From Escherichia coli (GTDB lineage: Bacteria; Pseudomonadota; Gammaproteobacteria; Enterobacterales; Enterobacteriaceae), in assembly GCF_030384885.1 (NCBI RefSeq), contig NZ_CP128613.1: 64,000 nucleotides of DNA; one strand, 5' to 3'. This document shows, one piece after another, positions 4,851 through 40,618 of the stretch; within the stretch, counting starts at the first letter, position 1, and every line of letters begins with the position of its first letter. A model generated the notes under the pieces. The model was given only the letters and a program-made list of their open reading frames with translations, ran no database searches and was not told the DNA's origin. A program made the position numbers and the translations under genes.

Positions 4851-5916
4851 TACAGCACTCCTTTAGACGAGGGCAGGGTGTCGCCTTCCACGCGGATAGC
4901 TTGGCGCAGGGTGCGACCAAAAGCTTTGAACAGGCTCTCTACACGGTGGTGATCGTTTTTACCTTTGGTTTTCAGGTGCAGGGTCACGCCCATGGTGTAT
5001 GAAAGCGAACGGAAGAAGTGCTCGATCATCTCGGTGCTGAGATCGCCCACGCGCTGGTAGGTAAACTCGGCTTTATATTCCAGGTGCGGGCGACCAGAGA
5101 TATCCAGCGCGCAGCGGGCAAGGCATTCGTCCATCGGCAGCACAAAACCGAAGCGGCAAATACCGCGTTTGTCGCCAAGAGCTATTTTTAACGCTTCGCC
5201 CAGCGCCAGACCGGTATCTTCGACAGTGTGGTGATCGTCGATATAGAGGTCGCCTTTAACGTTGATTTCCATACGGAAGCCGCCGTGGGTAGCAATCTGA
5301 TCCAGCATGTGATCAAAGAAGCCAACGCCGGTGTTAATCTTGCTGCCACCCTCGCGATCCAGCCACACCTGAACGTCAATCTGCGTCTCTTTGGTGTTGC
5401 GCACTACATGGGCATAACGATCGCGTTTAGTGAGCTGTTCGCCAATCATCGGCCAGTTCAGAGTATCGCGGTCGTAACGTAAACCATTAATGCCCATGTT
5501 TTCGGCCAGTTGAATATCGGTCGCGCGATCGCCAATAACATAACTGTTGGCACGATCCATCGCTTGCTCAGCCAGATAACGCTCCACCAGTTTGACTTTC
5601 GGCTTACGGCAGTCGCACTCATCGGCGGGCAGGTGTGGACAAATCAGCACTTCATCAAACTGCACGCCTTGCGAGGTGAAGATCTGCAACATCAGGTTGT
5701 GCGGGCCATCAAAATCCGCCTGCGGGAAACTTTGTGTTCCAAGACCATCCTGATTAGTGATCATCACCAGCTTGTAGCCCGCTTTTTGCAGCTTCAGCAG
5801 TTCCGGGATCACGCCCGGTTCAAAGGCGAGTTTGTCAAAACGGTCCACCTGAAAATCACTCGGCGGTTCGCTAATCAGGGTTCCATCGCGATCGATAAAA
5901 AGATACTTCTGACTCA

Positions 5917-22707: not shown

Positions 22708-22762
22708 GAGCGTTGTTAATTAGAAAGCAAAAAGCCTTCTCGAAAGCAGGCTTTTTTGAATT

Positions 22763-22838
22763 TGGCTCCTCTGACTGGACTCGAACCAGTGACATACGGA
22801 TTAACAGTCCGCCGTTCTACCGACTGAACTACAGAGGA
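22763..22838 (-). tRNA. asnV: tRNA-Asn(GUU)
   Basis: 76-nt reverse complement of canonical tRNA-Asn sequence ending CCA. Confidence 0.97.
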
Positions 22839-23164
22839 ATCGTGTGAACGGGGCGCATATTAATGGCAGTGCATGGTGATGTCAAAGGGTGAAATGCATT
22901 TTTTTGTTTGTTTGCTGTCAATTTCAACAAAGTGGTGAGCTTTCAATCTTATTGGGTAATGAACCATCGTGGTGCATACCCTCCTTTTATAGGGCAGGGG
23001 AACGCGACAGCTGATTAAAGGAGCCAATGACGAATCTATCATAATCTCTTATTTGACAGTTGCTTAGCTTGTACATCAACGCCAAAATAAAACTGGCAAG
23101 CATCTTGCACTCTGGTTGTAAGTAATGGCGGCACTTGGGCCGATTCTTAAACACCGGAGGCAAC

Positions 23165-25165: not shown

Positions 25166-25171
25166 GAAATT

Positions 25172-25247
25172 TGGCTCCTCTGACTGGACTCGAACCAGTG
25201 ACATACGGATTAACAGTCCGCCGTTCTACCGACTGAACTACAGAGGA
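25172..25247 (-). tRNA. asnU: tRNA-Asn(GUU)
   Basis: 76-nt exact tRNA-Asn copy. Confidence 0.97.
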
Positions 25248-25407
25248 ATCGCTGTTGAGGCACATCTTAACGGCGAAAAATTTTTTGTCAAACCCGATTT
25301 TTAAATTCCTCAACTGTTTGCCGTTTCTATCAACAGTTTGTTGCATTTGCAGACAATTTGTCGGCAAAAATCTTTGCAGCTTTGCTGATTCTCCCTCATC
25401 ATTTGAA

Positions 25408-26895: not shown

Positions 26896-26995
26896 ACGAC
26901 AAAGTGCAGATTATTTCAGCAAACGATTTCAAATTTAAAAAACAGGCTTTGACATTGTGGATGGGCGTCGCTAATATTCGCCTCGTTCTCACGAT

Positions 26996-27071
26996 TCCTC
27001 TGTAGTTCAGTCGGTAGAACGGCGGACTGTTAATCCGTATGTCACTGGTTCGAGTCCAGTCAGAGGAGCCA
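26996..27071 (+). tRNA. asnW: tRNA-Asn(GUU)
   Basis: 76-nt exact tRNA-Asn copy, plus strand. Confidence 0.97.
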
Positions 27072-27521
27072 AATTTTAGTTTTGAGACATCTCTATGAGT
27101 CTCAAGACAGTTAAAAAATAAAAATTATTTTTACCCGGTTATCTTGTAAAAAAGTGACTGGGTTTTTTGATTTCTGTGTTTTGTGCGCTTAATCGAGTCT
27201 CACGCTTCAGTGAGCAAATTGCCCCCCAACAGACATCACGATTCGCAAGGTCAAAAAATTCGTTCTGTGAAGTACCGTACAAAGGTATAGAGAAAAATGC
27301 CTTATGCGGGATGTTGCTGTCGCGTTTTTATCGGGAAACTAAACGTAATTGCCACTTTGTCTTCTGTAATCAGAAAAAGAAAACCTGGAATTTTAATAAA
27401 TATTATTTCTCTGGGACCGGTATTTTTATAATCAATATGACGAGTTGAATATTATATTTATTATAAGATTTATATGAAATTAAAGAAATCTGCCATAAAG
27501 ACAGATTTCTTTAAAATATAA

Positions 27522-28238
27522 TTAGAGATTTGCGACGTTATGATAAACTTTTTGAACATCGTCGTCATCTTCAAGGGCATCAACAAGCCCTTCAAAGATT
27601 TCTAAATCTTCTGGGGAAAGCTCAACTTCAGATTGAGCAATCATTTCTAATTCTGTTGTTGAGAACTCAGTGATTCCAGCTGCTTTTAGAGCCGCGATTC
27701 CTTTATGAAGGTCAGTAGGTTCAGTATAAATAACAATATTACCTTCTTCTTCAGTTACATCACGAACATCAACTTCAGCTTCAAGTAAAATTTCAAAAAT
27801 ATGGTCCGGGTCTGTACCTTTAAATACAATCACACCCGTATTGTCAAACATATAGCTGACAGAACCTGCCGCTCCGATATTGCCGCCTTTTTTATTGAAA
27901 ATTGTGCGAACGTTAGCAATCGTACGGTTAACATTTGAAGTCAAGGTTTCAGCGATAATCATTGAGCCATTAGGACCAAAGCCTTCATAACGGCCCTGCA
28001 CGAACGTTTCATCTCCGCCGCCTTTGGCTTTATCAATTGCTTTATCAATAACGTGCTTTGGAACTTGTGCCTGCTTCGCACGTTCAATAACGAATTTTAA
28101 AGATGTGTTTAATTCTGGATCGGGTTCACCTTGTTTGGCAGCAGCATAGATTTCTACACCGAATTTTGCATAAATTTTAGACGTTGCACCGTCTTTAGCC
28201 GTTTTTTTAGCAACAATATTGGCCCATTTACGTCCCAC
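27522..28238 (-). CDS. yeeN: YebC/PmpR-family transcriptional regulator
   Basis: 238 aa [20 protein letters not shown] typical of YebC family. Confidence 0.93.
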
Positions 28239-28579
28239 TGGAATGATCTCCTCGAAAATTTATTTACATTACTGGTAAATCGTTAACATGCGTTAATTCG
28301 GCATATTATATCATAACAGGAAAAATCTCGTCTATTAGAAATAAAAATATTCTAAATCCATAATCTTATATTTAATCTCATAAAAACTAATGTTGTTGGC
28401 GGATTTTTTTATAATTGTGTTTTGAAAGCATACTTGCTTTTAATATATGGAAATCATTAAGGCTATAATAAATCTCGTATCCGCCCCAGGAAGCAAACAG
28501 CCTGCTTTATTGCAGGCTATTTGCTGGATGACTTACTAAATCCTTCACATCTATTCCTGATAAAAAGGAACAGAACTTA

Positions 28580-30034
28580 TTACCGGAACGGCGGTTCATT
28601 AAAGGTTCGTAATTTACGTGAATGCAGTCGGTCGCCTTCTGCGCGCAGCAAATCGATCGCACGAATGCCAATTTGCAGGTGTTCGGAAATAGCGCCTTCA
28701 TAAAAACGGTTAGCCTGACCGGGAAGTTTAATCTCACCATGCAACGGTTTATCTGAAACACACAGTAGTGTCCCGTATGGCACGCGGAAACGATATCCTT
28801 GCGCGGCAATGGTTGCACTTTCCATATCAATTGCCACGGCACGGCTTAAGTTAAAACGAAGTGCAGAAGCTGAGTAACGTAATTCCCAGTTCCTGTCATC
28901 TGTGGTTACCACAGTGCCAGTACGTAGCCGCTGTTTAACTTCCTCTCCGGGCCTGCCGCTGACTAACTTGGTAGCGTCATAAAGCGCACGTTGCACTTCA
29001 GCAATGCTCGGAATAGGAATATCGGGCGGCAGTACCGCATCAAGAACGTGGTCATCGCGTAAATAAGCGTGTGCAAGTACATAATCTCCAATGGCCTGGC
29101 TTTCACGTAAGCCACCACAGTGACCAATCATCAACCAGACATCCGGGCGCAGCACCGCCAGATGATCGCAGATGGTTTTAGCATTTGACGGTCCCACGCC
29201 AATATTCACCAGAGTAATACCCTGACCATCGGCGGTAATTAAATGCCATGCAGGCATCTGATGTTTTTTCCATGCAAGGTCGGAAATGGCTTCTTCTGGC
29301 GCTTCGGTTTCGGCGGTGATCCAGTTCCCGCCAGCACAAGAAAGGGCAATGTAGGGACTATCAGGGTCGAGGATCTGGCTGCATCCCCAACGAACGAATT
29401 CATCCACATAACGTGTGTAGTTGGTAAACAAGACGAACGGCTGAAAATGTTCAACTGGCGTACCGGTATAATGGCGCAACCGTGCGAGGGAAAAATCAAC
29501 CCGGCGCGCATCAAAATGAGATAGCGGGGAGAATTCCGTTGGATGATAAATGCCGTCTGCAGTTTCATCGCCAATTTGCGCCAGTTCTGTTGTCGGGAAG
29601 TAGCGAGTTAATCCAGCGCTCATTGAGCGATCAAGTGTCAATTCAGAGCCATCGATGACATAAGGATAAGGGATTTCATGTTGCGAGGGTTGCACAGAAA
29701 TATGCGCACCATAATCCTGATAAAGCAACGTTAGTTGCTCATTCAGGTACGAACGAAAGAGAGTAGGGCGAGTAATCGTGGTGGTGTAGCTGCCTGCGTG
29801 AGTAAAACGACCAAATGCGCGCGTTTTGGGGGGATTTGTTGTGCTACCGTCCCAGGTTACGGTCAGTTATGGATAGACAAAAAGACCTTCTTTACGGGCA
29901 TTTTCATCAGGTAATTCGCCACTTTTAATATAGTTGCCAATGGCATTGCGTAAAGCGACTACAGATTGCTCATACAGCGCGTCGAGTTTTTCCAGTGCCT
30001 GAGCTGGGGTCAGACCGGAGCCCTTATTATTCAT
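28580..30034 (-). pseudogene. amn: AMP nucleosidase interrupted by an in-frame TAA at codon 56
   Basis: ORFs 29867..30190 (ends ...DENARKEGLFVYP*) and 28580..29728 are in the same frame; the interval between translates without further stops as Amn-like sequence. Confidence 0.85.
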
Positions 30035-30135
30035 GTGTGTCTCCTGTTCCATACAATTACCGCACTTCCGATAGTATGTCACAGGAATGTGAAACAAAAG
30101 TGTAAGGCGAAGATCGGATGATCTTCGCCTGACTA

Positions 30136-31452
30136 TCAAGCGTGTTGATTGTCTTTCATCAACAAAGCGGTTATTGCAGAAATGAGGCATCCAGCCAGCA
30201 AATAAATGGCGACGCTATGCCAGTTTCCAGCAAAATAAGTGATGAGTGCAGCAGCAATAAAAGGTGTAAATCCACCGCCGACCACACTGGCAACCTGATA
30301 TCCGACTCCAGCTCCACTATAGCGATAACTGGCACCAAACATTTCGGTAAACATCGGTTGTTGCACGCACACCACCATGTCATGCGCAATGTTTGCCAGC
30401 ATTATGGAGAAGAAAACTATCCAGAAAATAGATTGTGCTTCAAGCGCTATAAAGAAAGGAAATGCGCTCAACGTTCCGATTAACGCACCTGTGATATAAA
30501 CTCTGCGGCGACCAAAACGATCGGCAAGCCAGGCAAAACAGGGAATTGTCAGGCAGCTTAATCCACCTACCAGCAAACCAATATTGAGGAAAAGTTCGCG
30601 CGGTAACCCCATATTCTGGGTTGAATAATTAAGTGCGAAGGCGGTAACGATGTACATCGTCAGCAACTCGCACAGTCGTAGCGCAATAATCTTCAGAAAA
30701 GCACCGGGATGTCGTAACAGTGCTTCGATAACCGGGATGCGTTTTTGCGCTGCCGCTTGATTATGTTGCTGTTGTTCAAATTCCGCGGACTCCTCCATGC
30801 CATTACGCACCCACAATGCCCCCAGTACCAGTACGATGCTAAACAGGAAAGGAATGCGCCAGCCCCAGCTTAAAAACTGTTCGTCAGTCGTCATCATACT
30901 GATCAATGAAACCAGTCCGGTTGAAAGCAGTAAACCTACACCGTAACCAACTTGTACACCGCTACTGTAAAAGGCTTTTTTATTCTTAGGTGCGCTTTCA
31001 ACGGAAAGCAACGCTGCGCCTCCCCATTCGCCGCCGACGGCAAATCCCTGAATGGCACGCAGTGTCACCAGTAAAATGGGGGCCCACCAACCTATGGTCG
31101 AGAAGGAAGGAAGAATGCCAATCAAGGCTGTCGCGATGCCCATCATCCAGACGGTCAGCATTAACATGCGCTTACGTCCCAGTCGGTCGCCAAAGTGACC
31201 GAAAATGACACCGCCAAGTGGACGGAAAAGGAAGCCGACACCAAAGGTGGCAAATGCGGCGAGCGTTCCCATTGCCGGGCTGACTTGCGGGAAAAACTCG
31301 CGATTAAACACCAGTGCGGCGGTAATGCCATAGAGTAAAAAGTCATACCAGTCGACGACAGCTCCGGCGAAACTGCCAAACGCAGCTCGTCGGGCGCGAC
31401 TTAACGAAAGCGTCCCATCATCGGGACGAGTGGAGATGAGCGTGGTGTCCAT
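30136..31452 (-). CDS. shiA: MFS shikimate/dehydroshikimate transporter
   Basis: 438 aa ORF, MFS sugar-transporter signature (GHFGDRLGRKRMLM). Confidence 0.92.
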   Translation of the reverse strand: MDTTLISTRPDDGTLSLSRARRAAFGSFAGAVVDWYDFLLYGITAALVFNREFFPQVSPAMGTLAAFATFGVGFLFRPLGGVIFGHFGDRLGRKRMLMLTVWMMGIATALIGILPSFSTIGWWAPILLVTLRAIQGFAVGGEWGGAALLSVESAPKNKKAFYSSGVQVGYGVGLLLSTGLVSLISMMTTDEQFLSWGWRIPFLFSIVLVLGALWVRNGMEESAEFEQQQHNQAAAQKRIPVIEALLRHPGAFLKIIALRLCELLTMYIVTAFALNYSTQNMGLPRELFLNIGLLVGGLSCLTIPCFAWLADRFGRRRVYITGALIGTLSAFPFFIALEAQSIFWIVFFSIMLANIAHDMVVCVQQPMFTEMFGASYRYSGAGVGYQVASVVGGGFTPFIAAALITYFAGNWHSVAIYLLAGCLISAITALLMKDNQHA

Positions 31453-31757
31453 AATGATCCTGTTTGTACTGTCTTTTTATAATTAGTATGGAAAAGGTAA
31501 CTCACATTGCCGTCGATCTATAAACGAACCTTATGAGACTACCGCGCCAGAGCGCTTCTGCAAATGATTTTATGGCTGATTAACGGCAACATGAAAAATT
31601 CGATGGAAGATGAAATCGCAGGAGTTGCATAAGGATTGAGCAGAGCACCTACAGTTTTGAGATATGAAACATAAAAGTCCGCATATGCACAAAATTGCAC
31701 CCTGATGATTCTGATAGACTGCATTGCATTTTAACCAGTAGGGAGGCGAGGTTAGGT

Positions 31758-32828
31758 ATGTTTTTAGCATCATTGTTGAGACGTATTGCATTTAGTTACT
31801 ACGATTATAAAGCTAATAATTTCAATATTGGAAAAACAGACTTTGTTGTTATCCACATTCCCGATCAAATTGGCGATGCTATGGCCATCTTTCCAGTTAT
31901 TCGGGCGCTTGAATTGCATAAAATTAAGCATCTTTTAATTGTTACTTCGACTATTAATTTAGAAGTCTTTAATGCGCTCAAACTTGAACAGACTAAATTA
32001 ACATTAGTCACAATGACTATGCAGGATCACGCAACATTAAAAGAAATAAAAGATTTAGCGAAGAACATAACACAGCGATACGGTACGCCGGATCTTTGTA
32101 TAGAGGCGATGCGTAAAAAGAACCTGAAAACGATGTTATTTATCAGTCAGTTGAAAGCAAAAACGAATTTTCAGGTTGTCGGTTTAACCATGAAGTGCTA
32201 TTCCCCTTTGTGTAAGAACGCGTCCCGGATGGATCAGAATCTCAGGGCTCCCGTACCCATGACATGGGCGTTTATGATGCGTGAAGCGGGTTTTCCTGCA
32301 GTCAGGCCAATATATGAATTACCATTAAGCGAGCAGGTAATAAATGAAGTACGTGAGGAATTGTGCACTTTAGGATCTTACATTGCGCTTAATTTAGATG
32401 GCAGCGTGCAGGAACGCACATTTTCGTTATCAGTAGCTGAGAAACTCATCGCCAAAATTCAAAGTGATAATGATATGCCAATAGTCATTGTTCATGGACC
32501 AAAAGGGGAAGATAAAGCCCGGAAATTAGCGGGTTGTTATAATAATGTCTACCGGCTATCCTTATCACCCTCGATTAAACGTTCAGCAGCAATCATAAAA
32601 GATGCTTATATCGCAATAACCCCTGATACCTCAATATTACATATGGCAAGTGCCTATAATACCCCCGTCGTTGCAATTTATGCTGATTACAAAACGCGGT
32701 GGCCTGCGATGGCAGATATCTCGGAGTCAGTGGTCGTTGGGCAAAAAATTGATCATATAAGTTTGGATGAATTCGGAAAGGCGCTAAAAAGTGCTTTGGA
32801 GAGAGTATGTGCCAGTACTTACGTATAG
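31758..32828 (+). CDS. yeeL: glycosyltransferase family 9 (heptosyltransferase-like)
   Basis: ORF 31695..32828, probable start MFLASLLRR; GT9-like C-terminal motifs; apparently intact here. Confidence 0.7.
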   Translation: MFLASLLRRIAFSYYDYKANNFNIGKTDFVVIHIPDQIGDAMAIFPVIRALELHKIKHLLIVTSTINLEVFNALKLEQTKLTLVTMTMQDHATLKEIKDLAKNITQRYGTPDLCIEAMRKKNLKTMLFISQLKAKTNFQVVGLTMKCYSPLCKNASRMDQNLRAPVPMTWAFMMREAGFPAVRPIYELPLSEQVINEVREELCTLGSYIALNLDGSVQERTFSLSVAEKLIAKIQSDNDMPIVIVHGPKGEDKARKLAGCYNNVYRLSLSPSIKRSAAIIKDAYIAITPDTSILHMASAYNTPVVAIYADYKTRWPAMADISESVVVGQKIDHISLDEFGKALKSALERVCASTYV

Positions 32829-33207
32829 AAGGTAATGCCGATCTATGCTGAACAGGGGACATTAATACCCTGAGGTTGGTCAATCACCACAAAAAAAACC
32901 TTTGAATCAAAGCAATACTCACCGAATAATAAGGCAACCTGAACTTAAATCCCCGTTAACTGGCATACATTATTATGACTTGCACTGATGTAATTAGCTA
33001 AATATTATCGTGATTTGACTAAATAGCAAAAATGATAGCTATCAAAAATAGCTCATATACTTTGTTTCCCGCTGCCGTAGAATAGATGGTCCTTCCATGT
33101 TTCAAGCATTTATTCAAAAAAAAGGGGGCTCGACTGTCTTACGATAAACAGAGAGGGATTGTAAAGTCGAGTGCCCCTAATGGAGCACTCTATAAAAAAA
33201 TCAACAA

Positions 33208-36200
33208 TCAAATGTTTTTATAACATGTCACATGAGAAAATCCAAGTTTTGCCATTACGCTTTGCTCACCTGTTGCCAGGGAAATTTCGTATTGTTCATT
33301 GGAGTTTGCGGGACTAGATGACCAATACATATCTGAATAAAAATCGGCTTCATTCATGTAATGCCCCATATCTCCCCATTCACTGTACAATGTCCCTATA
33401 CCTCGGGAACGACCCTGGCTTAAAAGGCTTGCACGGGGAAGCATGTAGCCATTGCTACTGCAAAAATTTTCAGCAAGGCTGTATATCATGAAAGAATCGC
33501 CGGAGTTTACCCACCAACTCTTCACCCGGATTTCGTATATATAGCCAGGGCCTCCTGATTTTGGCGTCGCTGTAATCGTTACCCAACTGCTTCCGACATT
33601 TTTAAATGTCACTTTACCGGTAGCGTCAACATCGACCCAGGAGGCAGAGCTTGAAAACTCATAATCAGCCGCCGTTTTGCCCGGGGAAAAGTTGTCATTA
33701 TTCAACTGATAATAAGCCCCAGTGAACCCCTGCGAAGGGAATGTAGTTGTCGGTAGGTTAGCACCATTGACTAACACGGTACCGCTCATTATTTTGTCTT
33801 CTGCGCGAGTGAATTGTATTGTGGTACTCAGACCCGCTTGATGAACACCATTCAATACAGGGATCAGCGTTGCGATACCCTCTCCGCCTCCTATAACAGT
33901 GGCTTTGTAATCACCGTTGATATTTTGACTGTAATCAATTGCGCTAATTTTCACATAGGGCACGTTAGTACCTGATTGCACAAATTCCATCCCTTCAGAA
34001 ACTTTGATCGGATTGCCTGATATATCGTGCAAAACAAGATGTAGCTCAGCACTATCGGTATAGTCCCCTTTTAGTGATGACCGATTGTTCTTAAGGACGG
34101 ACTGCGAGGCGTCTGCCGGGCCTGCCACCAGCGTTATATTAGCTGTTTGCGTTGCACCTGTGCTCGTTCCTGCACTAACAGTTACGCTCCCAGTTCGCGC
34201 ACTTTTCAAGGTGGTTGTCGCAAATCCGTGTTGATCGGTCACCGCTGTTAATGACCCTAATGTGGCAGAGCCACTTTTTAATGCGAAGTTCACATTGACG
34301 CCTTCGACTTGGTTACCACTGCCGTCCTCAACAGTAGCCTTCAGCGTGCTGATATCGCTGTCGTTGGCAGTGATAGTTGACGGATCAGCGCTCAGGCTGA
34401 CCACATGGGCTGTGCTTTGGTTGCCAGTAACTTTCACGATTGTCTGCGCCTGAATAATTACGCCACTAGTGATAGATGCTGTAACCGTATACGTACCGAC
34501 TTTATTGCTGGTCAGAACGACTTGTGCCTCCCCGGAAGGATTGGTTTTCATTGTTTCGCTACTTAACGTTGCATCTTCTGGCGTTACGCTAAAGGTAACG
34601 AGTTCATTGTTCACTGGGGCCCCATTTGGATTGGTTAGCCTTACTGTCAGAGTTGAACCTAATGGGTCATTGATGCCGATAAGTGGACTTGATGCTGTGA
34701 GTGTCAGTTTTAAATCGATTACCACCAGGTCCTTCTCATAAGAGGAGCCATTCGCCAGGGATGCTTGCACAGTATACGAACCGTATCTATTGGGCGTCAT
34801 GGTGACCTCGGCTATACCCTGTGTATTCGTAGAGACCGTATCCTGACTAATGACCATGTTAAAAAATGACGGCTCTGCACTGAATGTCACAAGCTGTTCA
34901 GAAACTGGATTGCCAAACTGGTCGTCGACGTGCGCTTTAACCGCCAGGGGGGTTGCGACCATAACCTGACCTTCAGGCATTTCCAGACTGGTGATCGTCG
35001 CAGAATCAGCATCTGCTTTGACAGTCAACGTTTGCATGATGGTATCTGTAGGTGCATTTGCCAGATTAGCCACAACAATTTTCGTCCCTGCAATGGTGCT
35101 TGTTACAAGAATTTCTGCCTTACCCTGAGCATCTGTTTCAGCGGTGGTGTTACTCAGCGTGGCGGATAAGCCGCGGAAATTGACCTTGATGCCTTCTAAT
35201 GGATTGTCATAAGCGTCAGTGACACTTGCCGTCAGGGTCGCACCCTCGGTTGTGCTGGCGATTAATGAGCTTGATGATGCGGTAAAATCAGCCAGTTTAG
35301 CGGTACTCGCATCGGCAAGCAAAGTCACCGGCCTCGTATCACTGACACCATAACTGTCCACGCTGACCGTCACGGGATAGGTGCCGGACTTCGTACCGCT
35401 TAGTGTAACTTCCGCCTTGCCGTTGATGTCAGTAATGGCGGAACCGCCTTCTCCAAGAGTGAAGCTTGCACTCACATCTGCCGGTAGTGTGAATGTCACC
35501 GGCTCATTGGCTAACGGGTTGCCGTGTCCATCAGTCACCGTTGCCTGAAGTTGGGTCATCCCAACGTTATTGGCGATAAAGTTGTTCTCGGTAACGTTCA
35601 GATTAACCTGCGCTGTGAGCGTATCCGCAATAAAGTTCACCACCAACTGCTCACTCTTACCGCCAGCCATCGCTGCTGTCACGGTATGTGCTCCTGCTTT
35701 TGTACCTTTCAGTGTGACTTTCGCTTTGCCTTCAGCATCAGTAACCGCTTTACCGCCATCGCTCAGCGTGAAGTTTGCCCTCACATCTTCCGGGAGAGTA
35801 AATGTTACTTCAGTGTTGGCTATCGCATTGCCCTCTGTATCTGCGACTGTTGCTGTTAATGTCGTGAGATCGTTATTGTCGGCAATCACCGGATCTTTTG
35901 AGGCTCCCAGCGTGATTTCAGCATTCGCCACGTTCGGCACATAGGTCACTGTTTGTTGTATCGAATCGCCATTGTCGAGCGTTGCCGTCACTTGATAAAC
36001 CCCGGCTTTTGTAGCGGTAAAGCTTGCGTAAAAATGGCCGTAGGAGTTGGTAGTATATATAGCGTTATTACTGGGGGTCACACCTTCACTTGGCGAAACG
36101 CTGATGGTCACCTTATGTTGGGGTACACCGTTTCCGTAATTATCGTTTACCACAACATACAGATCGGTCGTGTTGCCTGCGGAGACTGTATCAGTAAGTG

Positions 36201-37251
36201 CTTGTAACAAGGTGATATGTGCCGTAGACGCATCAGCGTTGACATTAATTGATGTGCTAAGCGTGGAGCTACCATTTTCCAGACTGGCCTCAACGGTATC
36301 CGGCCTCCCTCCTGATTCTGCCGAGGAACGGGTATTGGTATAAGTGACGGTTGCCTTACCCTGTTCGTTCGTTACGGCTTGGCCGCCATTCGTCATTTCA
36401 GCAGAGTTTGTACTGCTGGTGAAACTCACAGTTACACCTTTCACCGGAAAGCTATTATTATCAACGACTGTCGCGGTGATGACGCTGCCGGTGCTATTCT
36501 GCGGGGTACCAGCGATTATGCTGTTTGGGACAGACGTCAACCCAATAATTTTTGCCGCAGCTGTGTCGCCAATAAAGTGCACAGTTTTGTGGTCGCTGGC
36601 ACCATTATTAGCAAGTGATACAGTGACCGTCTGCTCACCAAAGGCAACGCCTACGAGAGTGGCCTGCGCGATGCCAGACTCATTGGTATTACTCTCCCCT
36701 GGGGTGAGGGTGAGGCCTGAAGAGGCTGAGCTGAATGTTACCGGAAGATTGTTCACCTCATTGTCGAACTGGTCTTTAACCGTTGCAGTTAACGTTGCAC
36801 TATCGACGCCATTACCCGTGATCTCATCTTTTGACATCTGCAGGGCAACCTGAGCCGAGGTTTTGTCTGCCACAAATGTTACCGGCTGCGATTCACTGGC
36901 ATTGTTATTAATCAGCGTCGCGGTAACTGTATGCGTGCCCGCTTTTTTACCTTTGAGGGTGACATGCGCTTCCCCATTGGCTTGGGTGACGGTAATACCG
37001 TTATTTTCAAGGGTAAAGTTTGCCGCGACGTCTTGTGGCATGGTGAAATTCACCGCTATCCCCGCCACCGGATGATTCGACGGATCTTTCACTGTAGCTG
37101 TCAGCTGCACACTGTCGCTGTTATTCGTCACCACCTGGTGAGCAGGAATGTTCAGCGTGAGCCGCGCGTTGCTGGCATCGGGAGCAATATTGACTGTCTT
37201 CGAATCGCTATTGCCGTTAGGCAGAGTGGCTTCGGCTGTATGAACACCCAA
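33208..37251 (-). pseudogene. yeeJ: inverse-autotransporter adhesin, 5'-truncated (Big-domain array and C-terminal lectin-like domain retained)
   Basis: 1347 aa ORF of repeated bacterial Ig-like modules (VTLKGxKAGTHTVTA...) ending ...CYKNI; no signal peptide, LysM or beta-barrel region upstream; ORF abuts hypE fragment. Confidence 0.8.
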
Positions 37252-37286
37252 TACCGCGCCTTTTAGGGTAACTTCAGCAAACCGCC

Positions 37287-37535
37287 ATGGCAGCTAATAT
37301 GCTGGGTGTTGACGTCATTAATCTCGCTAATGAAGGTTGTTTGTGCCTGTTTGTTGAACCTGAGTATGCTCAGAAGGTACTACATTTGCTGCAGGAGCAT
37401 CCTGTCGGCAAGCACGCGACAATTATCGGCGAGATCACCGCTGTCTCGGGTACTGAAGTCTATATGATTGAAGCTGATGGAACACACACAGAAGTCGAGG
37501 AATTATATGGCGCAGAATTACCCAGACTCTGTTGA
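37287..37535 (+). pseudogene. HypE-like C-terminal fragment (ends with conserved PRxC)
   Basis: 82 aa ORF ...HPVGKHATIIGEI...ELPRLC matching HypE C-terminus including terminal Cys; N-terminal about 250 aa absent. Confidence 0.7.
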
Positions 37536-39885
37536 GCTTCACGAGACGCCGGAAACCCGGCGTTACCGCATCTGTGGGGTCGTTCAGGGCGTTGGATTTC
37601 GTCCCTTTGTTCACCGACTGGCCCGCACCTATGGTGCCACCGGCTGGGTGTTAAACGATTCAGAAGGCGTGTTGCTTGAGCTGCAGGCATCCGGCACGGT
37701 TATTGCCAGAATCATGGACAAACTGGTGACCGAGGCACCACCACTGGCAAAAATCATCAGTACGCAGGAAGTTAGCCCAACGGATACCAGAGCGCACTAT
37801 GAAACGTTCAGCATCCGTAAAAGCCGCGATCATACCAGCATGGACACGATTATCCCGCCAGATACCAACGTCTGCAGCGATTGCCTGCGCGAGATAAGCG
37901 ATCCTGATAATCATCGTTATCGTTACGCTTTCACCAATTGCACCAATTGTGGGCCGCGCTATTCCATTATTCTTGGTATGCCTTACGATCGTGCCCAGAG
38001 CACTATGCGTAAATTCCCTTTATGTCCAACCTGTGAGCGTGAATACAACGATATTGAGGATCGACGCTATCATGCCCAGCCCAATGCCTGCCCAGTTTGC
38101 GGCCCACAGTTGCAACTTACCGATCGACAGGGCACATCCGTTCACACAGATGATATTGTCAAATTTGCCATTACGAAACTAAAAGAAGGCGGAATTCTTG
38201 CAATAAAGAGCCTTGGTGGCTTTCATCTCGTGGCCGATGCTTGCAATGAGAATGCTGTCAATGAACTTCGGCAACGCAAGCGAAGAGACGCCAAACCTTT
38301 TGCAGTGATGGTCGCGGATGTGGAAAGCGCGTCGCGTATTGCTTTCATCCCCCCCTGTAATCACAAATTGCTGGAAAGCCCGCAGCGTCCCATTGTCTTG
38401 TTGTATAAGCGCAACGTCCTGCTGGCGAGTACCGTTGCGCCACATAATCCGAACATCGGTGTAATGCTGCCTTCAACGCCGCTTCAGCATTTATTGCTGG
38501 AAGACCCGTCTCTGCCGATCCTGATTATGACCAGCGGTAATATTTCCGGTCATCCGATCGTCTTTGACAACGACATGGCAATTAAGCAACTCGGGAAAAT
38601 CGCGGATTACTTCATTCTGAATAATCGCGATATTCATACGCGTGTTGACGATTCGGTGGTCCGCACGGTGTTTCGCAACGACGCCATTACCTCGCAGCTA
38701 TCGTTTTTGCGCCGCTCCCGCGGTTACGCGCCATACCCTATTCATCTACCTTACGCAGTGGATTCCGTTATCGCGCTCGGGGCGGAGCTAAAAAACACGA
38801 TCAGCATCGGCAAAGGAAAACAGGTTTTTCTGAGCCAGCATATTGGCGATCTTAAGAATAACGTGACTTTTAAATCACATATCGAATGTATTGATCATCT
38901 TCAAAACCTGCTGAACGTGAAGGCAAATGTCGTGGCCTGCGATTTGCATCCCTCTTTCCGCTCTACCCGGCATGCGCTGGAGAATTTAGAGCATCAGGTT
39001 GTTCAGGTTCAACACCATCACGCGCATATGGCATCCTGCATGGCGGAAAATGGCCTGTCAGGTACTACTCTAGGCGTAATTTTTGACGGTACAGGATATG
39101 GCACCGACGGCACCATTTGGGGCGGTGAGTTTCTCGTTGGTGATTTCGAAAAATTCGAGCGTGCAGGATGCTTGCGTTCAATGACCCTGCCCGGAGGCGA
39201 TCGGGCAGTTAAAGAGCCGCTGCGCGTCGGCATCTCCTTACTGGTGGAAACCTTCGGCGAAGATATCAGTACGCTCGCAGTACCAGGCTTGCAGGCGCTC
39301 CAGCCTCAGCAGCGCGATATATTCAGTAAAATGGCGACCAGAAAAATCAACACCACCACGACCAGCAGCATGGGCAGACTATTTGACGGCATCGCCGCGC
39401 TGATGGGCGTTTGCACTCAGGTGGAGTACGAAGCCCAGGCGGCCATTGAACTGGAAGCGCTGCTGCAGTGTAAACTTCATATGACGGCTCCGTTCAGCTA
39501 CATCATTGCCGATGTCGAGAATAAGCTCGAGGTGGATTATCGCCCGATGATAAGGGAACTGGTGCAATGCTTCAGCCAGCCCGGTTTTGATATGGCCGAA
39601 CTAAGTCGGCGCTTTCACTCTACCATCGTCGACATGATTTGCGAGGTCTGTAAACGTCTGGTGGCACGCTCAGGCACGCAACAAATTGTCCTGAGCGGCG
39701 GCGTGTTCTGCAATGAATTCATCCTCGTTAATTCTCTTAACAGTCTGGAGTCTTGTGGATTCCGGCCTTACAGCCATCAGTTAGTTCCGACTAACGATGG
39801 TGGTATTTCATTGGGGCAAGTGGTTATTGCTACCGCATACACTCGCGCAACGCGCAATAAAAATCTGGAGAGAGAAAATGCATAG
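37507..39885 (+). CDS. HypF-like carbamoyltransferase (acylphosphatase, two Zn-fingers, YrdC, Kae1 domains)
   Basis: ORF 37468..39885; RBS gagga before ATG 37507; acylphosphatase motif VQGVGFRPFV, two CxxC...CxxC pairs, YrdC and Kae1-like regions. Confidence 0.85.
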   Translation: MAQNYPDSVELHETPETRRYRICGVVQGVGFRPFVHRLARTYGATGWVLNDSEGVLLELQASGTVIARIMDKLVTEAPPLAKIISTQEVSPTDTRAHYETFSIRKSRDHTSMDTIIPPDTNVCSDCLREISDPDNHRYRYAFTNCTNCGPRYSIILGMPYDRAQSTMRKFPLCPTCEREYNDIEDRRYHAQPNACPVCGPQLQLTDRQGTSVHTDDIVKFAITKLKEGGILAIKSLGGFHLVADACNENAVNELRQRKRRDAKPFAVMVADVESASRIAFIPPCNHKLLESPQRPIVLLYKRNVLLASTVAPHNPNIGVMLPSTPLQHLLLEDPSLPILIMTSGNISGHPIVFDNDMAIKQLGKIADYFILNNRDIHTRVDDSVVRTVFRNDAITSQLSFLRRSRGYAPYPIHLPYAVDSVIALGAELKNTISIGKGKQVFLSQHIGDLKNNVTFKSHIECIDHLQNLLNVKANVVACDLHPSFRSTRHALENLEHQVVQVQHHHAHMASCMAENGLSGTTLGVIFDGTGYGTDGTIWGGEFLVGDFEKFERAGCLRSMTLPGGDRAVKEPLRVGISLLVETFGEDISTLAVPGLQALQPQQRDIFSKMATRKINTTTTSSMGRLFDGIAALMGVCTQVEYEAQAAIELEALLQCKLHMTAPFSYIIADVENKLEVDYRPMIRELVQCFSQPGFDMAELSRRFHSTIVDMICEVCKRLVARSGTQQIVLSGGVFCNEFILVNSLNSLESCGFRPYSHQLVPTNDGGISLGQVVIATAYTRATRNKNLERENA

Positions 39886-40618
39886 TTCTGCGAACCGTAT
39901 TGCCGCTGTTTTATTCGATATGGATGGTGTCCTTATTGATTCCAATGCGGTGATTGAGCGCGGCTGGGCTGAAGGCGCACAGATGTTTGGCAAGACGCTA
40001 ACGGAAGAGGATATCGTCAGGCATATTCACGGACAGCCCGGCCCGCATACCATTCGCGCCCTGTTCAGCGACCTTTCCCTGGAAGATCAAAAGAAGGTCC
40101 AGTCACATATCATCCACGTTGAAAATACCGCTGATTACGACCCGATCCCTGGAGTTAGCGAACTTATCCAGGCGTTGCATAAGGCTGGCATCAGTGTGGG
40201 GATTGTCACTAGCGGCTGGCGGTCGAAAATCGATCGTATTATGGAGATGCTGCAAATCACGCCCTGTATTTCAGTGATTGTCGAACGTGATGATGTCGTG
40301 CGCGGCAAGCCTTATCCCGATCCTTATCTGCTTGCCGCAGAGCGGTTTCATCTTGCACCGTCCAGAACACTGGTCTTTGAGGATTCAAGAAGCGGCGTAA
40401 CATCTGCTGTTACAGCAGGCGCAATTTGTGTTGGCATCGGTACAGACAGTCTGAAAGAGTGCGGTGCCGTGCTTGCAATTACAGATTTTCGTAATGTGAA
40501 AATCACCTCACAGACAGGCGAAAAAGTAGTGATTGCCTTTACTCCAGAGCACCAGATGGAGATGGAAACTCAGAGCTCTCGTAAGAAAACATCCTGTACC
40601 ACAAGAGAAGAGTGCTAA
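39878..40618 (+). CDS. HAD-superfamily hydrolase (beta-phosphoglucomutase-like subfamily IA)
   Basis: ORF 39797..40618, start MHSSANRIAAVLFDMDGVLIDS (DxDG motif), start overlaps hypF-like stop. Confidence 0.8.
   Translation: MHSSANRIAAVLFDMDGVLIDSNAVIERGWAEGAQMFGKTLTEEDIVRHIHGQPGPHTIRALFSDLSLEDQKKVQSHIIHVENTADYDPIPGVSELIQALHKAGISVGIVTSGWRSKIDRIMEMLQITPCISVIVERDDVVRGKPYPDPYLLAAERFHLAPSRTLVFEDSRSGVTSAVTAGAICVGIGTDSLKECGAVLAITDFRNVKITSQTGEKVVIAFTPEHQMEMETQSSRKKTSCTTREEC

What the first reader, a model, noticed from the sequence alone, without database searches (positions are those of the whole stretch)
31758..32828. Apparently intact family-9 glycosyltransferase (yeeL) where K-12 carries a disrupted copy
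A single 356-codon ORF with heptosyltransferase-like C-terminal motifs is present between shiA and yeeJ. I recall yeeL being annotated as a split pseudogene in K-12. An intact copy next to an adhesin gene could modify LPS core or glycosylate a surface protein.
Basis: partly seen in the sequence, partly recalled or inferred. Interest (0 to 1): 0.3.

Follow-up and report, generated by a model that had tools for sequence, protein, structure and literature searches.

The report
Intact yeeL glycosyltransferase gene; ordinary E. coli state
The window carries an undamaged copy of yeeL, an uncharacterised sugar-transferring enzyme gene that laboratory E. coli K-12 has lost to a single stop codon. The undamaged form is the usual state in E. 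coli, is already annotated, and shows no real tie to the neighbouring adhesin gene.

Summary
Window 31758..32828 (+) is one uninterrupted 356-codon ORF between shiA and a yeeJ remnant. It is identical to RefSeq WP_000477870.1 ("glycosyltransferase family 9 protein") of E. coli 2013C-4282. The K-12 orthologue is a pseudogene with one nonsense change, CAA to TAA at codon 235.

This is not unusual:
- yeeL DNA is present in about 97% of 5,426 complete E. coli genomes.
- It was intact in 10 of 15 sampled genomes.
- The exact K-12 stop allele occurs in 765 genomes (14%).

The adhesin link is not supported:
- Pseudocitrobacter has shiA-yeeL-mtfA with no yeeJ.
- None of seven contexts outside the E. 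coli yeeL locus has an adhesin beside the homologue.
- Seven of the ten sampled genomes with intact yeeL have a degraded yeeJ.
- YeeJ works in K-12, where yeeL is dead.

Distant relatives sit in surface-glycan clusters, which favours an accessory envelope-glycan role. That role is untested. Low interest; already known.

The parts
31758..32828 (+). yeeL ORF, 356 codons plus TAG. It encodes an intact GT9-family (GT-B fold) glycosyltransferase identical to WP_000477870.1.
31748..31752 (+). Shine-Dalgarno-like GAGGT, 6 nt upstream of the ATG
   Evidence: read directly from the sequence
31453..31757 (.). shiA-yeeL divergent intergenic region (305 bp). The simple scan found no consensus sigma-70 promoter for yeeL here.
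31872..31877 (+). Codons G39-D40. This is an invariant G-D motif just after the first beta-strand and is inferred to be the catalytic base equivalent to WaaC G12-D13.
   Evidence: Invariant in 27 and in 17 homologues. Position after strand E29-33. A permissive, non-significant hhalign places D40 on WaaC D13. Role of Asp13: bioRxiv 10.1101/2021.06.16.448588.
32391..32423 (+). Codons 212-222 (N-L-D-G-S-V-Q-E-R-T-F), the donor pyrophosphate-binding segment. G215-S216 align to WaaC T187-T188 and R220 aligns to WaaC K192.
   Evidence: hhalign; invariance
32460..32462 (+). Codon 235, CAA (Gln) in the window. This is the position that is TAA in K-12 MG1655, KOr024 and ABW_A32.
32625..32654 (+). Codons 290-299 (D-T-S-I-L-H-M-A-S-A), the GT9 sugar-binding signature. 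D290 aligns to WaaC D261 and H295 to WaaC H266.
   Evidence: hhalign; invariance
32808..32810 (+). Codon 351, TGT (Cys), where the common E. coli allele has the stop TGA. This one-base difference accounts for 356 aa versus 350 aa. Both alleles share the next in-frame TAG.
30136..31452 (-). shiA (shikimate transporter), the upstream divergent neighbour
33208..37251 (-). 3' fragment of the long-variant yeeJ inverse-autotransporter gene (at most 1,347 codons). In the window its 5' half is missing.

Best explanation
The ORF is the intact orthologue of E. coli yeeL. It encodes a cytoplasmic enzyme of about 40 kDa with a GT-B fold from CAZy family GT9. It represents the ordinary functional state of a dispensable accessory gene. 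K-12 lost that gene through one nonsense mutation (Gln235 to stop), which removes most of the donor-binding domain.

Inferred mechanism, by analogy with WaaC:
- The C-terminal Rossmann domain binds an ADP-heptose-type nucleotide sugar. G215-S216 and R220 would contact the pyrophosphate. D290, T291, S292 and H295 would contact the sugar.
- The invariant Asp40 in the N-terminal domain would deprotonate an acceptor hydroxyl for an inverting transfer.

The acceptor is not YeeJ. The most likely acceptor is an envelope glycolipid or glycan, such as a conditional LPS-core-type decoration, made independently of the waa cluster.

Shown here: gene integrity, fold, motif conservation, purifying selection, population frequency, and lack of linkage to yeeJ. 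Inferred only: donor identity, catalytic roles of individual residues, acceptor class, and expression.
For: Integrity and identity.

GT9 membership:
- Pfam PF01075 scores above its gathering threshold.
- The AlphaFold model is confident, with pLDDT 84.6 and pTM 0.85.
- Foldseek's top hits are GT9 structures: 3tov, WaaF 1psw, and WaaC 6dfe/2gt1/2h1h.

Active-site conservation:
- hhalign maps R220, D290 and H295 onto WaaC K192, D261 and H266, and G215-S216 onto T187-T188.
- D40, G215, S216, R220, D290, T291 and H295 are invariant in 27 homologues down to 36% identity.
- D40, D290, T291 and H295 stay invariant down to 22% identity.

Purifying selection: dN/dS is 0.14 against K-12 and 0.16 against EDL933.

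The intact state is normal:
- 10 of 15 sampled genomes are intact.
- A single 90%-identity cluster of 350-aa proteins has 10,923 member sequences.
- The K-12 stop allele is an exact match in 765 of 5,426 genomes.

Independence from yeeJ. Published work finds intact yeeJ in only 35-40% of genomes (PMC5595812, PMC6714894), against yeeL DNA in 97%.

Envelope-glycan leaning:
- P0110 (35% identity, E 7e-95 to the family profile) lies among GT2, GT4, GT9, Wzy_C, WecG and Bac_transf genes.
- P0126 lies next to a GT4-deacetylase gene, acyltransferase genes and another GT9 gene.
- P0133 is a fusion of Wzy_C (O-antigen-ligase-like) with a YeeL-like domain.
Against: - No expression evidence exists. The promoter scan found no consensus sigma-70 site in the 305-bp upstream region. 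The gene has low G+C, 0.38-0.41, as expected for silenced foreign DNA.
- The gene is repeatedly inactivated: the nonsense allele, a frameshift in MBT-5, an IS66 insertion in 2013C-3181 and an IS1 insertion in UID2404240038. Many short partial Shigella sonnei entries also exist, though these may simply be contig-truncated. Any function is therefore dispensable.
- Scores against the LPS heptosyltransferase I, II and III equivalog models are far below their cut-offs.
- The N-terminal, acceptor-binding half has no significant sequence match to WaaC.
- To my knowledge, and not tested here, the published core structures of E. coli are fully accounted for by waa genes. An LPS role would then have to be minor or conditional.
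- The glycan-cluster contexts come from relatives at only 25-35% identity on metagenomic contigs. The P0133 fusion could be a gene-calling artefact.
Confidence: 0.6

Rival explanations
1. YeeL is a protein O-heptosyltransferase that glycosylates the neighbouring inverse autotransporter adhesin YeeJ, as TibC does for TibA and AAH does for AIDA-I.
For: - In E. coli, yeeL lies next to yeeJ and converges on it.
- GT9 enzymes can be protein heptosyltransferases (PMC4358343).
- The divergence of the window allele rises from the flanks towards yeeL and yeeJ. dS is 0.07-0.18 in yeeN, amn and shiA, and 0.33 in yeeL. yeeJ is 87% identical at the nucleotide level. The two genes therefore share a variable segment.
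Against: - Adjacency is not conserved. Pseudocitrobacter has shiA-yeeL-mtfA. The P0044 lineage has hchA-yeeL-mtfA. In E. albertii the homologue lies in a tonB/yciA-type neighbourhood, as I read it from Pfam hits. In P0069 it lies between a malic-enzyme gene and eut genes. Erwinia, Rosenbergiella and Halomonas have further arrangements. None has an autotransporter nearby.
- Of 10 sampled genomes with intact yeeL, 7 have a degraded yeeJ. Three of the 5 genomes with a dead yeeL keep yeeJ intact.
- Both YeeJ variants are surface-displayed and promote biofilm in K-12, which lacks YeeL (PMC5595812).
- The BAHT hallmarks are absent. There is no N-terminal beta-barrel. There is no four-Cys iron finger: the Cys residues are at 114, 147, 152, 203, 260 and 351, and only C114 and C147 are invariant, both in the N-domain.
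- Structural similarity to TibC is clearly lower than to WaaC and WaaF.
- The family profile does not hit TibC in the PDB at E of 10 or less.
- In the window itself, yeeJ lacks its 5' half.
Confidence: 0.07
2. The gene is an evolutionary relic. It is a silent, horizontally acquired ORF that happens to be still intact in this strain but performs no function and is on its way to loss, as in K-12.
For: - Independent inactivations are frequent: the nonsense allele in 765 genomes, a frameshift, and IS66 and IS1 insertions.
- G+C is low.
- No promoter-like site lies upstream.
- The distribution among Enterobacterales is patchy and the locus varies.
Against: - dN/dS is 0.14-0.16 over dS of 0.26-0.33. 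This shows long-term purifying selection on the protein.
- All putative catalytic residues are invariant across genera.
- The gene is retained in about 91-97% of E. coli genomes, which is far more than its neighbour yeeJ.
Confidence: 0.15
3. YeeL is a canonical LPS inner-core heptosyltransferase paralogue, a spare WaaC, WaaF or WaaQ.
For: The best NCBIfam and PDB sequence matches are heptosyltransferase I and II. The closest folds are WaaF and WaaC.
Against: - Scores are 36.2 against a cut-off of 185.3 (HepI), 20 against 134.6 (HepII) and 16.9 against 170.2 (HepIII).
- Identity to WaaC and WaaF is 12-15%.
- The protein has a family-specific 28-residue N-terminal extension with an invariant D16-Y17. 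It also has a conserved loop at 142-163 that the model does not resolve confidently. I take this loop to be an insertion relative to WaaC, but that was not shown by residue-level alignment.
- The gene lies outside the waa cluster.
- It is dispensable in K-12, whose core is complete.
Confidence: 0.08

Closest known systems
E. coli LPS heptosyltransferases WaaC (HepI; PDB 2GT1, 2H1H, 6DFE) and WaaF (HepII; PDB 1PSW), CAZy GT9
   Same: - C-terminal donor-site residues are conserved position for position. G215-S216 match T187-T188, R220 matches K192, D290 matches D261 and H295 matches H266.
- A G-D motif follows strand 1, as at WaaC G12-D13.
- Similar size, 356 aa against 326-348 aa.
   Different: - Only 12-15% identity.
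- Far below the equivalog cut-offs.
- The N-terminal acceptor domain is not alignable by sequence.
- It has an extra N-terminal helix with invariant D16-Y17 and a conserved Cys-containing loop at 142-163.
- The gene is outside the waa cluster, stands alone, is dispensable and is often inactivated.
Veillonella parvula GT9 protein (PDB 3TOV; function uncharacterised)
   Different: It shares 15% identity and has no known function, so it gives no functional transfer.
Bacterial autotransporter heptosyltransferases (BAHT: TibC, AAH; PDB 4RAP)
   Same: Both have a GT9-related catalytic core that uses ADP-heptose. In both cases the gene sits next to an adhesin gene in E. coli.
   Different: - YeeL has no N-terminal beta-barrel, no beta-hairpin thumb and no four-Cys iron finger. 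These features are described in PMC4358343. They are absent from the YeeL model and Cys pattern.
- The profile gives no sequence hit.
- Adjacency to the adhesin is not conserved.
- The neighbour is an inverse (type Ve) autotransporter, not a classical one.
K-12 yeeL pseudogene (annotated 'glycosyltransferase family 9 protein, internal stop')
   Same: It is orthologous and sits at the same locus between shiA and yeeJ. It shares 90.7% nucleotide and about 90% amino-acid identity.
   Different: - K-12 has TAA at codon 235, whereas the window has CAA.
- The window allele belongs to a rare allele class. About 16 of 5,426 genomes are at least 97.7% identical to it.
- The window allele reads through the usual TGA stop, which is TGT here, for 6 more codons.

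Membership tests
CAZy/Pfam glycosyltransferase family 9 (PF01075) | Match to the family HMM above the curated gathering score | tested here: met
   30.7 bits against a cut-off of 22, E 2.5e-7, covering residues 230-320 only
CAZy/Pfam glycosyltransferase family 9 (PF01075) | GT-B fold (two Rossmann-like domains) most similar to solved GT9 structures | tested here: met
   [not shown]
CAZy/Pfam glycosyltransferase family 9 (PF01075) | C-terminal ADP-heptose-binding residues: the equivalents of WaaC T187/T188, K192, D261, T262 and H266 | tested here: met
   G215/S216, R220, D290, T291 and H295 align to these residues. They are invariant in 27 homologues.
CAZy/Pfam glycosyltransferase family 9 (PF01075) | N-terminal catalytic Asp (WaaC Asp13) in a G-D motif after strand 1 | tested here: inconclusive
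   G39-D40 is invariant and lies directly after predicted strand 29-33. A permissive hhalign places D40 on D13, but with E 0.27 and probability 0.2%. No residue-level structural superposition was available.
CAZy/Pfam glycosyltransferase family 9 (PF01075) | Demonstrated glycosyl (heptosyl) transfer from a nucleotide sugar | not testable with these tools
   Needs an enzyme assay.
LPS heptosyltransferase I/II/III equivalogs (WaaC, WaaF, WaaQ) | Score above the NCBIfam equivalog cut-off | tested here: not met
   TIGR02193 scores 36.2 against 185.3. TIGR02195 scores 20 against 134.6. TIGR02201 scores 16.9 against 170.2. The RfaC, RfaF and RfaQ models score 12-16 against 437-569.
LPS heptosyltransferase I/II/III equivalogs (WaaC, WaaF, WaaQ) | Encoded in the waa (rfa) core-biosynthesis cluster | tested here: not met
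   The gene lies between shiA and yeeJ. In other genera it lies at unrelated loci.
Bacterial autotransporter heptosyltransferases (BAHT; TibC/AAH) | N-terminal flattened beta-barrel domain (TibC residues 1-97) | tested here: not met
   The model shows helix 2-13 and then the Rossmann strand at 29-33. There is no beta-barrel. Feature taken from PMC4358343.
Bacterial autotransporter heptosyltransferases (BAHT; TibC/AAH) | Iron-finger insertion with four conserved Cys in the C-lobe (TibC C339, C342, C358, C370) | tested here: not met
   The C-terminal domain has only C203, C260 and C351, none of them conserved. The invariant Cys residues are C114 and C147, both in the N-domain.
Bacterial autotransporter heptosyltransferases (BAHT; TibC/AAH) | Conserved genetic linkage to the cognate autotransporter substrate | tested here: not met
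   None of the seven contexts examined outside the E. coli yeeL locus has an autotransporter beside the homologue. yeeL and yeeJ are retained independently in E. coli.
Bacterial autotransporter heptosyltransferases (BAHT; TibC/AAH) | Dodecameric ring assembly; heptosylation of Ser residues in a passenger domain | not testable with these tools
   Needs biochemistry.

The most novel reading that the evidence does not exclude
The YeeL family is a small, distinct GT9 clade. Only 36 representatives at 50% identity reach E of 1e-30 or better among 1.84 billion proteins. The clade has its own N-terminal D-Y helix and a conserved Cys/His-bearing loop. It might glycosylate an acceptor class not yet known for GT9 enzymes, either a conditional non-waa decoration of LPS or another envelope glycolipid, or a non-autotransporter protein. 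If so, K-12 and about 14% of sequenced E. coli would differ from wild strains in an unrecognised surface modification.
Probability: 0.15. Interest if true: 0.45.

Novelty: already known. Interest (0 to 1): 0.15.

Why it matters
The finding matters little as it stands. The gene, its GT9 assignment and the K-12 pseudogene status are already in RefSeq annotation. K-12 yeeL is even used as a neutral integration site in strain engineering (PMC11566304).

Three points are modestly useful:
- K-12 is the exception rather than the rule for yeeL.
- The attractive adhesin-glycosylation idea can be set aside on comparative grounds.
- No member of this narrow GT9 clade has been characterised. An E. coli strain with the intact allele, or K-12 with the TAA repaired to CAA, would be a cheap entry point to find its acceptor.

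Tried and rejected
- Promoter and terminator scan of 31300-33300. It found no promoter-like site upstream of yeeL and fewer sites than in the shuffles, so it says nothing about expression.
- Sequence search of the PDB with the family profile. The top hits were artificial alphaRep proteins that match the short 'IGDxxAxxPxIxxL' stretch repeatedly. I rejected these as spurious. Only weak WaaC and WaaF hits remained.
- hhalign of the N-terminal half against WaaC. The result was not significant, at E 0.27. A plain Smith-Waterman alignment gave a shifted, meaningless alignment. The D40 to D13 equivalence therefore remains an inference.
- Foldseek against AFDB50. The library was unavailable.
- Literature searches for yeeL. 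The results were mostly noise from author names, or uses of K-12 yeeL as an integration locus. I found no functional study. The two YeeJ papers mention neither yeeL nor glycosylation.
- The possibility that the window comes from a divergent Escherichia species. I rejected this because the flanking genes are 95-98.5% identical to K-12. Only the yeeL-yeeJ segment is divergent.

Full report
**1. Observation**

Window 31758..32828 (+) is a single ORF of 356 codons plus TAG. It starts at an ATG that follows GAGGT by 6 nt. shiA (30136..31452, -) lies upstream and is divergent. The 3' end of a yeeJ-type inverse-autotransporter gene (33208..37251, -) lies downstream.

The stretch 31500-33100 is 100% identical to E. 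coli 2013C-4282 (NZ_CP027579.1). There the ORF is annotated as 'glycosyltransferase family 9 protein', WP_000477870.1.

The K-12 MG1655 orthologue is flagged as a pseudogene with an 'internal stop'. My translation puts the stop at codon 235. K-12 has TAA where EDL933 and the window (32460-32462) have CAA. The K-12 product would lack residues 236-350, which form most of the donor-binding domain.

The K-12 lesion is one nonsense codon.

**2. How unusual the intact copy is**

It is not unusual.
- yeeL DNA is found in 5,267-5,282 of 5,426 complete E. coli genomes. One place covers at least 80% of the query in 4,921-4,938 of them.
- I sampled 15 genomes spread down the similarity ranking and checked their annotation and translation. 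Ten have an intact gene.
- Five are disrupted. Three carry the same codon-235 stop (K-12, KOr024, ABW_A32). MBT-5 has a 1-bp frameshift. 2013C-3181 has an IS66 insertion.
- One further genome, UID2404240038, has an IS1 insertion.
- The exact K-12 59-mer containing TAA occurs in 765 of 5,426 genomes, or 14%.
- One 90%-identity cluster of 350-aa proteins alone holds 10,923 member sequences.

The window allele is unusual only as an allele.
- It is about 90-91% identical in nucleotides to the common alleles. Only about 16 genomes are at least 97.7% identical to it.
- Synonymous divergence from K-12 rises along the locus: 0.07 in yeeN, 0.14 in amn, 0.18 in shiA and 0.33 in yeeL. yeeJ is about 87% identical in nucleotides. 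yeeL therefore sits at the edge of a hypervariable yeeJ segment.
- The six extra C-terminal residues come from TGT at the position of the usual TGA stop. Both alleles share the next in-frame TAG.

**3. What the protein is**

- Pfam GT9 matches residues 230-320 above the gathering threshold.
- The NCBIfam models for heptosyltransferases I, II and III and for RfaC, RfaF and RfaQ match only weakly, far below their cut-offs.
- An AlphaFold model built from a 27-sequence family alignment is confident, with pLDDT 84.6 and pTM 0.85. It shows two Rossmann-like domains, an extra N-terminal helix (2-13) and one low-confidence loop (142-163).
- Profile alignment to WaaC covers YeeL 204-346 against WaaC 176-319, with probability 95.9% and E 5.7e-9. 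The WaaC sequence was verified against 2GT1.
- That alignment places G215-S216 on T187-T188, R220 on K192, D290 on D261 and H295 on H266. In WaaC, these residues bind the pyrophosphate and heptose of ADP-heptose (bioRxiv 10.1101/2021.06.16.448588).
- These residues are invariant in all 27 family members down to 36% identity. D40, D290, T291 and H295 remain invariant in 17 relatives down to 22% identity.
- G39-D40 lies directly after the first predicted strand, as G12-D13 does in WaaC, where Asp13 is the catalytic base. This equivalence is an inference. The N-terminal halves do not align significantly.
- dN/dS between the window allele and other E. coli alleles is 0.14-0.16.

Taken together, this is a selectively maintained GT9 enzyme that is probably active. 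It is a distinct clade rather than a copy of WaaC, WaaF or WaaQ.

The family is narrow. A profile search of 1.84 billion representatives found 36 at E of 1e-30 or better and 414 at E of 1e-10 or better. Named members come from Escherichia, Shigella, Pseudocitrobacter, Erwinia, Rosenbergiella and Halomonas.

**4. The adhesin hypothesis**

Four lines of evidence argue against a YeeJ-modifying role.

(a) Synteny. Pseudocitrobacter has ldtA-yeeO-amn-shiA-yeeL-mtfA, which is the E. coli order without yeeJ. This suggests, by inference, that yeeJ was inserted next to a pre-existing yeeL. The YeeJ paper notes that yeeJ lies by the asnT integration hot-spot (PMC5595812). The other contexts differ again:
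- The 73%-identical P0044 lineage has hchA-yeeL-mtfA-shiA.
- In E. albertii the homologue sits in a neighbourhood that I read from Pfam hits as tonB to yciA.
- In P0069 it sits between a malic-enzyme gene and eut genes.
- Erwinia, Rosenbergiella and Halomonas have further contexts.
None of the seven contexts has an autotransporter nearby.

(b) Co-retention. Of the 10 sampled genomes with intact yeeL, only 3 have an intact yeeJ. Of the 5 with a dead yeeL, 3 keep yeeJ intact. Published surveys find intact yeeJ in 35-40% of genomes (PMC5595812, PMC6714894), against about 97% for yeeL DNA.

(c) Function. Both YeeJ length variants reach the surface and promote biofilm when expressed in K-12, which has no functional YeeL (PMC5595812).

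(d) Family features. [quoted passage not shown] The YeeL model has none of these. Its only invariant cysteines, C114 and C147, are in the N-domain. The family profile does not hit TibC in the PDB at E of 10 or less.

In the window itself, yeeJ is also only a 3' fragment (see section 7).

**5. Most likely role**

The gene stands alone in every close relative, so context gives no acceptor. More distant full-length relatives do give a hint.
- P0110 (35% identity, E 7e-95 to the family profile) lies among genes for GT2, GT4, a second GT9, two Wzy_C proteins, WecG and Bac_transf.
- P0126 lies beside genes for a GT4-deacetylase, a hexapeptide protein, an acyltransferase and another GT9.
- P0133 is a 777-aa protein with an N-terminal Wzy_C (O-antigen-ligase-like) domain fused to a full-length YeeL-like domain, next to a GT4-deacetylase gene.

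These contexts favour an envelope glycolipid or glycan acceptor, as with LPS or LOS core, over a protein. I therefore propose that YeeL is an accessory ADP-heptose-type GT9 transferase. It would add a non-essential, possibly conditional decoration to an envelope glycan.

The weak points are these:
- There is no expression evidence. No promoter-like site was found, and G+C is low at 0.38-0.41.
- The gene is often lost.
- The acceptor domain is divergent.
- To my knowledge, which was not tested here, the waa genes already account for known E. coli core structures.

**6. Novelty and score**

The gene, its family assignment and the K-12 pseudogene are already in public annotation. K-12 yeeL is used as a neutral integration site (PMC11566304). 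I found no functional study of any YeeL-family protein in the searched library. The biochemical function therefore remains open, but the finding as stated is ordinary. Interest is 0.15.

**7. Noticed in passing**

The window equals NZ_CP027579.1 on both sides but lacks about 7.16 kb of it, record positions about 492137-499295. The junction is at window 37279-37283.
- Lost are the 5' half of yeeJ, a LysR regulator gene, a cysteine hydrolase gene and the 5' part of hypE.
- No complete genome in the collection has this junction.
- It could be a real deletion in a sister isolate or an assembly difference.

Noticed in passing
window 37279-37283 (junction); affects 33208-37251 and 37279-37800: Relative to the otherwise identical complete genome NZ_CP027579.1, the window lacks about 7.16 kb (record positions about 492137-499295). 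This fuses the middle of yeeJ to the 3' part of hypE. Lost are the yeeJ start, signal peptide, LysM and beta-barrel regions, a LysR regulator gene and a cysteine hydrolase gene. None of the 5,426 complete genomes carries this junction. It may be a real deletion, a different assembly version or an artefact.
   Followed up: partly
window ~37279-42826: A small island sits next to a tRNA-Asn gene. It encodes hypE/hypF-like carbamoyltransferase maturation genes, a HAD hydrolase and an MFS transporter, and it carries integrase and Arm-domain remnants. In the reference genome it also has LysR and cysteine hydrolase genes. Only about 16 genomes share it over at least 80% of a 6-kb query. It looks like a secondary-metabolite or cofactor cassette at the asnT integration hot-spot and was not examined further.
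   Followed up: no
window 27522-37251: Divergence from K-12 forms a gradient across the locus. dS is 0.07 in yeeN, 0.14 in amn, 0.18 in shiA and 0.33 in yeeL, and yeeJ is about 87% identical in nucleotides. The pattern suggests an old recombinant allele block centred on yeeJ. The window's yeeL allele class is rare, with about 16 of 5,426 genomes at least 97.7% identical.
   Followed up: partly
window 32181-32246 (YeeL residues 142-163) and codons 33, 114, 147, 152: The only low-confidence part of the model is a loop whose sequence is nevertheless strongly conserved (C147, S156, D159, Q160, R163). H33 and C152 are replaced in both Halomonas sequences (C152 also in P0085), whereas C114 and C147 are invariant. 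This could be a metal site or an acceptor-binding lid. It could not be checked without model coordinates.
   Followed up: no
L027:1955-4288 (protein P0133): A metagenomic 777-aa protein fuses a Wzy_C (O-antigen-ligase-like) membrane domain to a full-length YeeL-like GT9 domain (E 1.4e-40). It lies next to a GT4/polysaccharide-deacetylase gene. It is a possible Rosetta-stone clue to an envelope-glycan role. It is a single contig, so a gene-calling fusion cannot be excluded.
   Followed up: partly
L007:10001-11059 (E. albertii), L024:9001-10083: YeeL homologues at 63-66% identity occupy quite different chromosomal sites in other taxa. In E. albertii the neighbourhood, as I read it from Pfam hits, is tonB to yciA. 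In an unnamed enterobacterium the gene lies between a malic-enzyme gene (maeB-like) and eut genes. Together with the low G+C of 0.38-0.41, this suggests that the gene moves horizontally as a single-gene unit.
   Followed up: partly
window ~22759-22862, 25167-25255, 26972-27083, 42715-42826: Four tRNA-Asn-like copies lie within 20 kb. These are the asnT/U/V/W region, a known integration hot-spot. In several sampled genomes the yersiniabactin island (HPI) lies beside the yeeJ remnants instead.
   Followed up: no
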